This document shows, piece after piece, positions 15,001-18,000 of a stretch of 64,000 nucleotides of DNA. The position numbers are program-made. Origin of the DNA: a virus. Taxonomy: Duplodnaviria; Heunggongvirae; Uroviricota; Caudoviricetes. The stretch lies in IMG/VR virus record IMGVR_UViG_646311923_000012; one strand, 5' to 3'. How positions within the stretch are numbered: position 1 is the stretch's first letter; each line of letters opens with the position of its first letter.

Positions 15001-18000
15001 CAATTACAAATTTAATAATAAACATGTTGACCAGTTAAATTTTAATTTGTAAATTGTATCCATAAACCCACCCCGCCCCACAGAACGCAGGGCAATACTT
15101 CGAGTTACCCGGCAGTGGTCAGGGGTTAAGTAGCCAGCCTGAGGCGTATGAACATGACGGCGGGGATTACGTTTAACTATGCAGCAGGTTTTTTGTTCCG
15201 CTACCCCGGCGTTAAGGGGAAACAGAGGATTTCTCAGTGGGCGAAGTCAAACATCAGAATGGAAGGCATCCAGGGATCAGCAAAGAAACAGCGATGGCGC
15301 TTTATATTGATATCAGCGCCATTGCCGGACAGGTAAGAATTATCAGAGCGGTAACTAAGCGGTATGCGCCTTTACTTCAGAAAGTCTCTGGTGAGTGCAC
15401 CGAAGATATTGTCAACGATTTCGTCATCAAACTGCGAGGACTCATCTTCAGTTACAAGGTGACCACAATTTTTGCAGATGGCTCCCGCGAAACTGTCAGA
15501 GCCATGCGGTTTAAAGGATGTGTCAAAGACTTCGCCACCACATTCTGGGCAAGAAAACTTGATTGTATTCATAACCAATTTCCTCTCGAGTAACAGACCC
15601 CTCAGAGGATACCACCTCGCCTGACGTGGTTAAAAGCAGGCAGCGCTAACCACAAGGAGCCGACATGCAGAAACGAGAACCCGTCATCATCGCGCCAGAC
15701 TATACCGATGATGAACTTTATGAGTGGATGCACCAGAAAATTAAGGCAGCGCAGGACCTGAAATGGGCCAATGAAGCCAGGGCTAAGCAGGCTGAAAATC
15801 TGTCCGCTCTGGAGCAGGATATCACCAATCTGGAAAAAGCAGCGGCATTAAGCATTGCCAGAATGATTACATACCCGCGTTAATAGCTAACCAACGAAGC
15901 TAAGGTTGGTAATTAAGGAGTTCTCCACGGGTGAGGTGGAGTGCGTGCGCCGGACACGGGTGAGCATCCGGCACTGACAGTTTACTGAAAGGATATTTCC
16001 CTGAAAAGTCAGACCATAACGCGAAAGCGCACGGCGAGGTAGCTGGTTCATAGATAGCCTGTCGTTAAATTTTCGTCGACCGTGCGCTTCCGGTTGTGGC
16101 AATCCGCGAAATGGCGCGGCGGTAAGTATGGCGGGGTTATTCCTTCCCCAGTTGAGGACACCGGGTTGTCAGGTTGACCATACGCTTAAGTGACAACCCC
16201 GCTGCAACGCCCTCTGTTATCAATTTTCTGGTGACGTTTGGCGGTATCAGTTTTACTCCGTGGCTGCTCTGCCGCCCTTTTTAAAGTGAATTTTGTGATG
16301 CGGTGAATGCGGCTCAGCGCACGCGGAACAGTTAAAACCAAAAACAGTGTTATGGGTGGATTCTCTGTATCCGGCGTTAATTGTTAACTGGTTAACGTCA
16401 CCTGGAGGCACCAGGCACCGCATCACAAAATTCATTGTTGAGGACGCGATAATGGAAACGTTATTACCAAACGTTAATACGTCTGAAGGTTGTTTTGATA
16501 TTGGTGTTCTGCTCAGTAACCGGGAGTTTACTGAAGATGCCATTAATATGAGGAAATATGAGCCTTATCTGCTCAATGATAATTCCATACTTTCCCGAAT
16601 TGCTCTTCTTGAACTTGGTATTTTCGGAGAACGTCAATAACTTCAGCATTTGCACTGATGATGACGGTTTTTCTTATAACGGGTGAATCACAGAATGTGA
16701 TTACCGGAATTTATGCCAGTAAAGAATCCTGCCTCCAGGCAAGAGACGAGCAAAAAATTTCTGGTGAATGCCTCCCGGTAAAAAAAGTATCGCTGTACCT
16801 GAATAACGAAACACCGGCTGGATAACCCTCCAGCCATATTAACACCATACCAACGGATTAAAAATGCCAGCAATGGCAGGGATTCGTTCACCCTGAAATC
16901 TGTAATGAGGTAAAACAAAATGAGTAAAGTCTTTATTTGCGCCGCCATTCCGGACGAACAGGCAATAAAGGAAGAAGGTGCAGTCGCTGTAGCCACTGCC
17001 ATTGAAGCCGGTGATGAACGTCGCGCCCGCGCAAAATTTCACTGGCAATTCCTGGAACATTATCCGGCTGCTCAGGACTGCGCTTATAAATTTCTTGTTT
17101 GCGAGGATAAACCCGGTATTCCCCGCCCTGCCCTCGATTCCTGGGATGCTGAATATATGCAGGAAAACCGCTGGGATGAGGAGTCTGCTTCCTTTGTCCC
17201 GGTTGAGACTGAATCAGATCCGATAAACGTCACTTTTGACAAGCTGGCCCCTGAAGTACAGAACGCTGTCATGGTTAAGTTCGACACATGTGAAAACATC
17301 ACCGTTGATATGGTGATTAGCGCGCAGGAACTGTTGCAGGAAGACATGGCAACATTCGACGGACATATCGTTGAAGCGTTGATGAAAATGCCTGAAATTA
17401 ACGCTATGTATCCGGAACGCAAACTGTTCGCTATCGGATGGGTTAAACACAAATGTAATCCGGGTGCCAAATGGCCCGAAATTCAGGCTGAATTACGTAA
17501 CTGGAAAAAACGGCAGGACGCAGAGCGCAAAGAGACTGGAAAATACACGTCTGTTGTTGATCTCGCCAGCGCCAGAGTCAATCAACAGAACACTGAAAAC
17601 TCAGCAGGAAAAATCAACCCAGTCACTGCCGCCATTTGTCGCGAATACAAGCAGACATGGAAAACGCTGGATGAAGAACTGGCCTACGCTCTCTGGCCTG
17701 GTGATGTGGATGCCGGAAACATTGACGGCAGCATCCATCGCTGGGCAAAAAATGAAGTTATCGACAACGACCGCGAAGACTGGAAGCGTATCTCGGCATC
17801 AATGCGCAAACAGCCTGATGCCCTTCGCTACGACCGCCAGACTATTTTTGGCCTTGTCCGTGAACGTCCGATCGACATTCACAAAGACCCTGTGGCACTG
17901 AACAAATACATTACTGAATACCTGACTACAAAGGGCGTGTTTGAAGATGAAGGAACAAATCAGAGCGCAACTGATACTCTCTCGTCGCCAGTACCAGAAA

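What the first reader, a model, noticed from the sequence alone, without database searches (positions are those of the whole stretch)
16225..16640. DicF sRNA - dicB-like module in prophage A
The 57-nt sequence at 16225-16281 matches K-12 DicF except for one base, and a 62-aa DicB-like ORF follows. DicF is a known Hfq-dependent sRNA (ftsZ and other targets) and DicB a division inhibitor. Multiple prophage copies of dicF exist in EHEC, so this copy may contribute to host regulation.
Basis: established knowledge. Interest (0 to 1): 0.4.

Follow-up and report, generated by a model that had tools for sequence, protein, structure and literature searches.

The report
DicF sRNA and dicB prophage module
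This is an intact copy of the well-known prophage cell-division-inhibitor pair, the small RNA DicF and the small protein DicB, so the finding is correct but ordinary; the only fresh point is that the RNA spacer between the two genes is itself a conserved, pseudoknotted structure related to the phage sRNA STnc100.

Summary
Window 16225-16277 (+) is a full-length DicF sRNA gene (Rfam RF00039, 75 bits against a gathering score of 48). It differs from K-12 dicF at one base, A39G at 16263. That change turns a U-A stem pair into U-G and lies outside the predicted ftsZ pairing. A 62-aa DicB ORF follows at 16452-16640 (Pfam PF05358, 125 bits, full length). The window is 100% identical to bovine E. coli E2865. 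The module sits in the early-left operon (ydfC-dicF-dicB-ydfD-exonuclease-int) of a defective lambdoid prophage. dicF occurs in 3822 of 5426 complete E. coli genomes, and four times in E2865. The ydfC-to-dicB-5' cassette is about 98% identical to K-12 Qin, including both predicted RNase III stems. A mosaic joint inside dicB gives a common second DicB allele with a diverged C-terminal half. Verdict: already known, low interest. Side result: the dicF-dicB spacer (16285-16436) is a covariation-supported four-way junction with a pseudoknot. It is a sub-threshold relative of Rfam STnc100 and also precedes kilR (after sRNA KilS) in Rac and terB in P7. I found no published description of this link in the papers I searched.

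The parts
13849..14247 (+). CI/DicA-like HTH repressor gene (132 aa). It diverges from a Cro/DicC-like gene at 13468-13728 (-). The operator-like repeats lie at 13760-13800 in the intergenic region.
   Evidence: Pfam HTH_3 for the repressor; YdaS_toxin/HTH_3 for the Cro-like gene. RefSeq annotation. Repeats. The role as repressor of the dicF operon is inferred from position.
15001..15055 (+). Probable early-left (pL-like) promoter of the ydfC-dicF-dicB operon: TTGACC-17 nt-TAAATT (15027-15055), bracketed by inverted operator-like half-sites TTACAAATTTAA (15004-15015) and TTTAATTTGTAA (15041-15052).
   Evidence: Promoter-like site. The same 18-21 nt motif recurs in the repressor/cro intergenic region (D1 86% identity, I2 94% complementary), and the sequence is shown. 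This is an inference, because promoter-like sites are not enriched in the region overall (7 found against 5.7 expected).
15665..15883 (+). ydfC (72 aa), the first gene of the conserved cassette.
   Evidence: RefSeq annotates it as protein YdfC. It is 97.7% identical to K-12 ydfC, and identity drops to 48% immediately upstream, which marks a mosaic joint.
15884..16224 (+). Untranslated ydfC-dicF leader. It contains a long imperfect hairpin, 16014-16039 paired with 16074-16099, which is the predicted upstream RNase III substrate.
   Evidence: The leader is 97.7% identical to K-12. The computed 5' end of the published 190-nt DicF precursor is 16088. That position lies in the 3' arm of this hairpin, with pair probabilities of 0.96-1.0. 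The 190-nt RNase III product is described in PMC10448788.
16225..16282 (+). dicF: the 53-nt DicF sRNA (16225-16277) plus the U-tract of its Rho-independent terminator. The single difference from K-12 is A39G at 16263.
   Evidence: Rfam RF00039 at 75 bits, full length. Alignment to b1574. Fold with a single-stranded 5' tail and a terminator hairpin.
16285..16436 (+). Structured dicF-dicB spacer. A 21-bp closing stem pairs 16285-16305 with 16416-16436. The four-way-junction core is 16293-16428. A pseudoknot pairs 16329-16335 (CAGUUAA) with 16384-16390 (UUAACUG). It is a distant relative of Rfam STnc100.
   Evidence: Fold z-score -4.8. The 3' end of the published 72-nt RNase III form of DicF falls at 16296, inside the stem. 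STnc100 scores 37.7 bits, below its gathering score of 47. The reciprocal model R1 finds both STnc100 copies in the window. Covariation is shown.
16452..16640 (+). dicB (62 aa), an allele with a diverged C-terminal half.
   Evidence: Pfam PF05358 at 125.5 bits. RefSeq WP_000449175.1 is annotated as DicB. 63% identical to K-12 DicB. The full-length allele is present in 1040 of 5426 genomes.
16637..16825 (+). ydfD-like DUF1482 gene. RefSeq starts it at ATA 16637; the first ATG is at 16658.
   Evidence: Pfam DUF1482 at 48.6 bits. RefSeq annotation. 59% identical to K-12 ydfD.
16920..19370 (+). 816-aa exonuclease with a C-terminal Rv2179c-like 3'-5' exonuclease domain. It is the next gene of the same operon and is given as context.
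   Evidence: Pfam PF16473 at 221 bits. RefSeq annotates it as 'exonuclease'.

Best explanation
This is an intact dicF-dicB module in the early-left (pL-type) operon of a defective lambdoid prophage of E. coli E2865. By homology with K-12 Qin it should work as follows. When the prophage repressor is relieved, a polycistronic transcript starts upstream of ydfC, probably at the operator-flanked promoter near 15027-15055. RNase III cuts the long hairpin at about 16088, and RNase E then makes the mature 5' end at 16225. The 3' end is set either by the intrinsic terminator (53 nt, ending at 16277) or by RNase III cutting in the 21-bp stem of read-through transcripts (72 nt, about 16296). With Hfq, DicF pairs with ftsZ mRNA through its loop and 3' half, and with other mRNAs through its 5' tail. 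This blocks FtsZ synthesis and rewires metabolism. In attaching-effacing strains it is also reported to act on pchA and on LEE expression. Read-through transcripts also encode DicB, which blocks Z-ring formation through MinC. The structured spacer directly upstream of the dicB ribosome-binding site probably gates dicB translation or stability through RNase III processing. The sequence identity, the structures and the context are shown here. Expression, processing, Hfq binding, target regulation and the activity of this DicB allele are inferred from K-12 and EHEC work.
For: DicF covariance model at 75 bits, full length, with one conservative substitution relative to K-12. The predicted DicF-ftsZ duplex is identical for both alleles at -38.5 kcal/mol, and the E2865 ftsZ leader is 100% identical to K-12 (H110). 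DicB Pfam match at 125.5 bits. Gene order ydfC-dicF-dicB-ydfD-exonuclease-int is the same as in Qin. The ydfC-to-dicB-5' cassette is 97.7-98.3% identical to K-12, including 100 nt on each side of dicF. Both published RNase III products map into strong predicted stems (PMC10448788; PMC5069750). The two K-12 differences in the 21-bp stem are both G-C to G-U changes. The exact 57-mer is the best match in 492 records, and dicF is present in 3822 of 5426 genomes. Operator-like repeats are shared between the repressor/cro region and the promoter-like site. The same module occurs in sequenced temperate phages, including Stx2a-converting and PPompW phages, and phage Tritos annotates DicF.
Against: There are no expression data for this copy. 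RefSeq does not annotate dicF in E2865. The promoter assignment rests on a consensus scan that is not enriched over shuffles, plus the repeats. Between the putative promoter and ydfC lies a 600-nt stretch antisense to a minus-strand zinc-ribbon gene, which could cause interference. The C-terminal 29 residues of DicB are only 45% identical to the characterised K-12 protein, so MinC-dependent activity is assumed, not shown. The ydfD start codon that overlaps the dicB stop in K-12 is ATA here. The DicF hairpin alone is not more stable than shuffles (z = -1.2), although this is not informative for so short an RNA.
Confidence: 0.9

Rival explanations
1. The sequence is intact but functionally silent. 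The prophage repressor keeps the operon off, the prophage is decaying (integrase split by IS3, portal gene frameshifted), and this copy adds nothing measurable beyond the other three dicF copies in the genome.
For: The prophage is defective. In K-12 the operon is repressed by DicA and DicF is low in log phase (PMC10448788). There are 4 copies in E2865.
Against: The cassette is about 98% identical to K-12 across 800 nt of mostly non-coding RNA, while the flanks are mosaic. This argues for continued selection or recent exchange rather than decay. K-12 shows stationary-phase accumulation and spontaneous derepression despite its repressor. EHEC reviews report phenotypes for multicopy dicF (PMC7873438).
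Confidence: 0.2
2. The DicF hairpin serves mainly as an intrinsic terminator or attenuator of the early-left operon, limiting expression of toxic dicB. On this view the released RNA is a by-product with little trans-acting role in this strain.
For: A GC-rich stem followed by a U-tract lies directly upstream of the dicB leader. Rac and E. albertii homologues keep the hairpin and U-tract but vary the loop.
Against: The 5' tail and the loop, which are the target-pairing parts, are invariant relative to K-12. Direct regulation of ftsZ, xylR and pykA by compensatory mutations has been published (PMC5069750). The two roles are not mutually exclusive.
Confidence: 0.08
3. The match is a chance similarity or a pseudogene fragment.
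For: None found.
Against: E = 1e-14 for the full-length model, 56 of 57 identity to K-12, conserved synteny, and an intact downstream ORF.
Confidence: 0.01

Closest known systems
dicBF operon of cryptic prophage Qin, E. coli K-12 (ydfABC-dicF-dicB-ydfDE; DicF b1574, DicB b1575)
   Same: The order ydfC-dicF-dicB-ydfD-exonuclease-int is the same. Identity is 98% from ydfC to the first 20 codons of dicB. DicF differs at 1 of 53 nt. Both RNase III stems and the terminator are conserved.
   Different: The immunity region and promoter differ. There is no dicA/dicC or ydfA/ydfB; instead there is another HTH repressor pair, a HigBA module and a zinc-ribbon gene. The DicB C-terminal half and ydfD are diverged (52-59% nucleotide identity). 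The exonuclease gene is intact here but is a pseudogene (ydfE) in K-12.
Multicopy dicF of EHEC O157:H7 (Sakai, EDL933, 86-24), as described by Balasubramanian et al. 2016 and Melson & Kendall 2019
   Same: [quoted passage not shown] The exact G39 57-mer is also found in the O157-type strain FRIK1989. The literature is cited.
   Different: The strain here is bovine E2865. I could not read Melson & Kendall 2019 (not held), so I cannot say which of dicF1-4 this allele corresponds to.
KilS-kilR of cryptic prophage Rac (K-12 b4833, b1352)
   Same: It has the same three-part layout: an sRNA ending in a DicF-like terminator hairpin (sub-threshold DicF hits of 38.7 and 34.4 bits), then the same about 137-nt structured leader (R1 scores 135.7 bits in K-12 Rac), then a small FtsZ-directed division inhibitor.
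   Different: The 5' tail and loop of the sRNA differ, with no ACUCC anti-Shine-Dalgarno loop. The protein is KilR, which is unrelated to DicB.
Rfam STnc100 (RF02076) and its reported relative PasD
   Same: The dicF-dicB spacer shares the closing stem, three hairpins, the GGUGAAU and GGAGGCACC motifs and a covarying 7-bp pseudoknot with the two bona fide STnc100 copies in this window.
   Different: It scores below Rfam's gathering threshold (37.7 against 47). It lacks a terminator of its own and runs into the dicB ribosome-binding site, so it is a 5' leader and not a free-standing sRNA. STnc100 sits in the late region upstream of the esterase gene.

Membership tests
DicF sRNA (Rfam RF00039) | Sequence and structure match the family covariance model at or above the gathering score | tested here: met
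   75.0 bits against 48, model positions 1-52 of 52.
DicF sRNA (Rfam RF00039) | Single-stranded 5' tail followed by a stem-loop that doubles as a Rho-independent terminator with a U-tract | tested here: met
   The fold leaves nt 1-15 unpaired and forms a 7+4/5-bp hairpin followed by UUUUU. A39G converts U-A to U-G in the inner stem.
DicF sRNA (Rfam RF00039) | Location between ydfC and dicB in a lambdoid prophage early operon | tested here: met
   RefSeq annotation of the identical genome and comparison with K-12.
DicF sRNA (Rfam RF00039) | Complementarity to the ftsZ translation-initiation region | tested here: met
   RNAduplex gives -38.5 kcal/mol for both the window and K-12 alleles, with position 39 unpaired. 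The E2865 ftsZ leader is 100% identical to K-12. This is a prediction only.
DicF sRNA (Rfam RF00039) | Produced by RNase III/RNase E processing, bound by Hfq, and represses ftsZ in vivo | not testable with these tools
   Only the substrates can be seen. Both published RNase III cut positions map into strong predicted stems.
DicB (Pfam PF05358) | Match to the family HMM above the gathering score over the full 62-residue length | tested here: met
   125.5 bits against 27, residues 1-62 aligned to profile positions 1-62.
DicB (Pfam PF05358) | MinC-dependent inhibition of Z-ring formation, and inhibition of ManYZ and FhuA-type receptors | not testable with these tools
   The C-terminal 29 residues are only 45% identical to the characterised K-12 protein, so function is inferred.
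STnc100 (Rfam RF02076), considered for the dicF-dicB spacer | Score at or above the gathering threshold | tested here: not met
   37.7 bits against 47, E = 7e-6 in a 3.7-kb search. The spacer is therefore not filed as a member.
STnc100 (Rfam RF02076), considered for the dicF-dicB spacer | Shared secondary-structure architecture | tested here: met
   A model built without any STnc100 sequence finds both STnc100 copies at 58.1 and 53.3 bits over its full length. Helices show compensatory changes, and the pseudoknot covaries.
STnc100 (Rfam RF02076), considered for the dicF-dicB spacer | Free-standing sRNA with its own 3' terminator | tested here: not met
   The model's 3' terminator part aligns weakly into the dicB coding sequence. 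The element ends 15 nt before the dicB start codon.
HK022 put antiterminator RNA, considered for the spacer | Sequence or structure similarity to putL/putR | tested here: not met
   There is no STnc100-type hit anywhere in HK022 22-40.7 kb at E <= 1. R1 finds nothing in HK022. put is a roughly 70-nt two-stem RNA.

The most novel reading that the evidence does not exclude
The roughly 150-nt 'spacer' between dicF and dicB belongs to a widespread Enterobacteriaceae phage RNA family. The fold is a four-way junction locked by a 7-bp pseudoknot. Rfam STnc100 (and, by report, PasD) is the free-standing sRNA branch of this family. The kilR, dicB and P1/P7 terB leaders are cis-acting branches that gate translation or stability of toxic small-protein genes, in lambdoid phages through RNase III cleavage of an extended closing stem. 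The parallel layouts DicF-leader-dicB and KilS-leader-kilR would then be two versions of one ancestral three-part module. The papers I could search do not make this link. The 2026 Pas/STnc100 preprint never mentions DicF or dicB, and the KilS paper never mentions DicF. The 1994 Faubladier & Bouché paper, which I could not read, may already cover part of it.
Probability: 0.35. Interest if true: 0.45.

Novelty: already known. Interest (0 to 1): 0.15.

Why it matters
As stated, the finding adds one more annotated copy of a well-studied prophage regulator pair. Its practical value is as an annotation fix, because RefSeq omits dicF in this genome, and as a reminder that attaching-effacing E. coli carry several DicF/DicB doses. 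The side observation could matter more. If the dicF-dicB spacer is a functional pseudoknotted leader shared with kilR, terB and the STnc100/PasD sRNAs, that would explain why this non-coding stretch is more conserved than the neighbouring genes. It would also offer a testable handle on how phages keep toxic division inhibitors silent until needed.

Tried and rejected
1. I tested whether the structured spacer is a put-like RNA antiterminator, as in HK022. cmscan of HK022 22-40.7 kb gave no STnc100-type hit, and model R1 found nothing in HK022. This idea is rejected.

2. I looked for other Rfam families over 13300-17000 and 16150-16600 at E <= 1. Only DicF and STnc100 were credible; tsr32 and ceN53 were noise.

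3. I asked whether the conserved spacer could be coding. There is an in-frame GTG extension of dicB from 16347 and a 96-aa minus-strand ORF at 16253-16543. I rejected this because homologues differ by indels that are not multiples of three in the variable loop, and because the substitutions are compensatory in helices.

4. The sigma-70 promoter scan gave 7 sites against 5.7 expected from shuffles, so it is not informative on its own. I kept the 15027-15055 site only because of the shared operator-like repeats.

5. The thermodynamic z-score of DicF alone is -1.2. This is not significant, but it is uninformative for a 57-nt hairpin.

6. Melson & Kendall 2019 (PMC6628830) and Faubladier & Bouché 1994 (PMC205167) are not held. 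Their content is cited only through reviews and reference lists.

7. I did not locate the other three dicF copies of E2865, because the search tool lists one place per record.

8. The first version of the junction/loop cross-control was not clean, because many near-identical haplotypes were counted as different. The pseudoknot argument therefore rests on the four distinct haplotypes and on the shuffle frequency of 3.4% for helices of at least 7 bp.
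Full report
**Observation**

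The Rfam scan of the whole window gives a full-length DicF hit (RF00039) at 16226-16277 on the + strand. It scores 75.0 bits against a gathering score of 48, with E = 1e-14. I aligned the region to the annotated K-12 MG1655 locus (dicF b1574, fetched). This places the 53-nt RNA at 16225-16277.

There is exactly one difference from K-12, G for A at DicF position 39 (window 16263).

The downstream ORF starts at ATG 16452 and stops at 16638-16640, giving 62 aa. A GAGGA Shine-Dalgarno sequence lies at 16440-16444. The ORF matches Pfam DicB (PF05358) end to end at 125.5 bits against a cut-off of 27.

**Where it sits**

Window 15600-17000 is 100% identical to the chromosome of E. coli E2865 (bovine, Japan; NZ_AP018808.1).

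- RefSeq annotates ydfC, dicB, a DUF1482 (ydfD-like) gene, an 816-aa exonuclease, a DUF4224 gene and an integrase split by an IS3 element. It does not annotate dicF.
- On the other side lie a divergent pair of HTH regulators, ydaT, replication genes, Q-region genes, tRNAs, lysis genes and a full set of head and tail genes. One of these is a frameshifted portal gene.

This is the early-left operon of a large but defective lambdoid prophage. The gene order ydfC-dicF-dicB-ydfD-exonuclease-int is the same as in cryptic prophage Qin of K-12.

**How similar it is to the characterised locus**

Segment identities to K-12:

| Segment | Identity to K-12 |
|---|---|
| Immediately upstream of ydfC | 48% |
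| ydfC | 97.7% |
| ydfC-dicF leader (341 nt) | 97.7% |
| dicF | 98.1% |
| dicF-dicB spacer (174 nt) | 98.3% |
| dicB codons 1-20 | 90% |
| dicB codons 21-33 | 82% |
| dicB codons 34-62 | 52% |
| ydfD | 59% |

So a cassette from 15665 to about 16510, most of it non-coding, is conserved between mosaic joints, and one joint lies inside dicB.

At the protein level DicB is 63% identical to K-12 DicB, with 26 of 33 residues matching at the N-terminus and 13 of 29 at the C-terminus. This allele is common. It is found full-length in 1040 of 5426 complete E. coli genomes and four times in E2865.

**Is DicF intact?**

A39G turns the U-A pair at the base of the inner stem into U-G, and the Rfam alignment marks it as a compatible pair. 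The single-stranded 5' tail and the loop, which are the parts shown genetically to pair with xylR and with ftsZ/pykA (PMC5069750), are unchanged.

RNAduplex against the ftsZ leader gives the same duplex and the same energy (-38.5 kcal/mol) for both alleles, with position 39 in an internal loop. The E2865 ftsZ leader is 100% identical to K-12.

The exact 57-mer is the best match in 492 records. dicF as a whole is present in 3822 of 5426 genomes, with up to 6 copies per genome and 4 in E2865.

**Processing signals**

In K-12, DicF comes from the polycistronic transcript. RNase III gives the 5' end of a 190-nt species. RNase E gives the mature 5' end. The 3' end is either the terminator (53 nt) or an RNase III cut that gives a 72-nt form (PMC10448788; PMC5069750).

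Transposed to the window:

- The 190-nt 5' end falls at 16088, in the 3' arm of a long hairpin (16014-16039 with 16074-16099; pair probabilities 0.96-1.0).
- The 72-nt 3' end falls at 16296, in the 5' arm of a 21-bp stem (16285-16305 with 16416-16436). That stem closes the whole spacer (z = -4.8).
- K-12 differs at two positions of that stem, and both changes are G-C to G-U.

**Regulation (inferred)**

The immunity region differs from Qin. The repressor/cro intergenic region (13760-13800) and a site just past higB (15001-15052) share an 18-21-nt AT-rich motif, TTACAAATTTAA, in inverted orientation. The second site brackets a promoter-like TTGACC-17-TAAATT at 15027-15055 on the + strand.

I read this as the pL/OL equivalent that drives ydfC-dicF-dicB. 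This remains an inference.

**The spacer is a structured RNA family**

At a relaxed threshold, 16275-16484 hits Rfam STnc100 (RF02076) over the full model at 37.7 bits, below the gathering score of 47, with E = 7e-6. Two bona fide STnc100 copies lie elsewhere in the window, at 1294-1466 and 50618-50790 on the minus strand.

BLAST found copies of the core at 70-99% identity in other contexts:

- Directly upstream of kilR in Rac.
- Upstream of kil in Shigella Stx phage 75/02 and in Escherichia phage 683R6.
- Upstream of terB/tciB in P7.
- In a P1-like plasmid segment.
- In a Klebsiella phage.

All six outside loci also give sub-threshold STnc100 hits of 33-43 bits. The Rac-type loci additionally give sub-threshold DicF hits (38.7 and 34.4 bits) immediately upstream of the element.

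RNAalifold on eight copies predicts a four-way junction with 32 pairs, 8 of which show compensatory changes.

I built covariance model R1 from seven of these leaders, with no STnc100 sequence included. R1 finds both STnc100 copies in the window at 58.1 and 53.3 bits (E about 1e-14) over its full length. It also finds the K-12 Rac leader between kilS and kilR at 135.7 bits.

A pattern scan of species-representative genomes finds the element in Escherichia, Shigella, Citrobacter, Klebsiella, Raoultella, Enterobacter and Pseudescherichia.

On 24 distinct copies:

- 95.2% of cells form standard pairs.
- 19 of 33 pairs show changes on both sides.
- No shuffle out of 500 reaches the observed values.
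- Slid controls pair at only 28-44%.
- Caveat: the alignment is fitted to the model, so it leans towards this structure.

The strand after helix 2 (16329-16335, CAGUUAA) is complementary to the loop of helix 4 (16384-16390, UUAACUG). Four different sequence versions keep a perfect 7-bp Watson-Crick match:

- CAGUUAA / UUAACUG
- UGGUUAU / AUAACCA
- AAGGUUG / CAACCUU
- AUCAGCA / UGCUGAU (the STnc100 version)

Shuffled junction strands reach 7 bp in 3.4% of trials. This supports a pseudoknot.

K-12 annotates an sRNA, KilS, in the kilR 5' UTR (PMC8175672). So Rac carries KilS-leader-kilR in the same layout as DicF-leader-dicB.

The 2026 preprint that links PasD to STnc100 does not mention DicF or dicB. 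I tested and rejected a relationship to the HK022 put antiterminator.

**How the leader might work (inference)**

In read-through transcripts the extended stem ends 4 nt before the dicB Shine-Dalgarno sequence. In the minimum-free-energy fold, CCUU at the end of DicF (16276-16279) pairs with GAGG of the Shine-Dalgarno sequence (16440-16443).

RNase III cleavage in the stem would separate DicF from the dicB message and free the ribosome-binding site. This is untested.

**Verdict**

The element is a textbook DicF/DicB module, and multicopy dicF in EHEC-type strains is already published.

Novelty: already known. Interest is low, at 0.15.

The most novel reading not excluded is that the intervening leader belongs to an undescribed superfamily of pseudoknotted phage RNAs that includes STnc100. 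I give this a probability of about 0.35 as stated, and moderate interest if true.

Noticed in passing
window 16285-16436 (+): The dicF-dicB 'spacer' is a conserved four-way-junction RNA with a 21-bp closing stem. It gives a sub-threshold Rfam STnc100 hit (37.7 bits against 47). A model built from dicB/kil/terB leaders alone finds the two true STnc100 copies of the window at 58 and 53 bits.
   Followed up: yes
window 16329-16335 with 16384-16390 (+): A 7-bp pseudoknot joins the junction after helix 2 to the loop of helix 4. Four different sequence versions across the family, including STnc100 (AUCAGCA/UGCUGAU), keep perfect complementarity.
   Followed up: yes
L012 2259-2503 (-) (K-12 Rac); L005 2460-2703: Rac has the same three-part layout: sRNA KilS (a DicF-like terminator hairpin, sub-threshold DicF hit of 38.7 bits), then the same structured leader, then kilR. 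The KilS paper does not mention DicF.
   Followed up: partly
L014 about 6870-7180 and L024 about 4380-4680 (Escherichia albertii): E. albertii carries DicF variants that keep the 5' tail (UUUUCUGGUGA) but have a shortened or replaced loop lacking UUUUACUCC. L014 encodes exactly the same DicB allele as the window. This suggests that the ftsZ-pairing loop is dispensable in some lineages.
   Followed up: no
window 16225-16277: RefSeq (PGAP) annotates ydfC and dicB in E2865 but not dicF. The 12 dicF matches listed from other RefSeq E. coli genomes (a sample of the 3,830 matching records) also show 'none' under the match, apart from K-12, which annotates it. This is an annotation gap.
   Followed up: partly
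window 16637-16660: The ydfD-like gene has lost the ATG that overlaps the dicB stop in K-12 (ATGA there, ATAA here). RefSeq calls an ATA start at 16637, and the first ATG is at 16658. Translational coupling to dicB may be altered.
   Followed up: no
window about 16510-16550: There is a mosaic recombination joint inside dicB. Identity to K-12 falls from 98% (spacer) to 52% (codons 34-62). The resulting allele is full-length in 1040 of 5426 genomes.
   Followed up: partly
window 14294-15003 (-) and 15372-15578 (-): A HigB/HigA toxin-antitoxin pair sits on the opposite strand between the repressor gene and the putative pL. A small zinc-ribbon gene (ECs_2282 family) sits on the opposite strand between the putative pL and ydfC, so the pL transcript would run antisense to the zinc-ribbon gene.
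   Followed up: no
window 13760-13800 and 15001-15052: AT-rich operator-like repeats (TTACAAATTTAA in inverted orientation) are shared by the repressor/cro intergenic region and a promoter-like site at 15027-15055. These are probably the OR and OL of this prophage.
   Followed up: partly
window 19658-21989: The prophage integrase is split by an IS3-family element (about 20075-21237). The portal gene, which lies outside the window, is frameshifted. The prophage is defective.
   Followed up: no
window 1294-1466 (-), 50618-50790 (-), 56107-56281 (-), 63603-63719 (-): There are two full STnc100 copies. The one at 1294-1466 lies downstream of that prophage's tRNA cluster, between a DUF3927 gene and the SASA esterase gene; the one at 50618-50790 lies about 0.8 kb from the second tRNA cluster, but its flanking genes were not examined. 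There is also a sok antitoxin RNA and an IS3 ALIL frameshift pseudoknot. The window therefore spans parts of two tandem lambdoid prophages.
   Followed up: no
phage records MT713136.1 (Aeromonas phage AP1) and PP818812.1 (Actinobacillus phage); MAG loci L032, L033, L037, L038: E. coli-type dicF/leader sequences at 88-99% identity appear in records assigned to Aeromonas and Actinobacillus phages, and in MAG bins labelled Veillonella, Mycobacteriales, Nanosynbacter and Collinsella. This is probably contamination or mis-binning rather than real host range.
   Followed up: no
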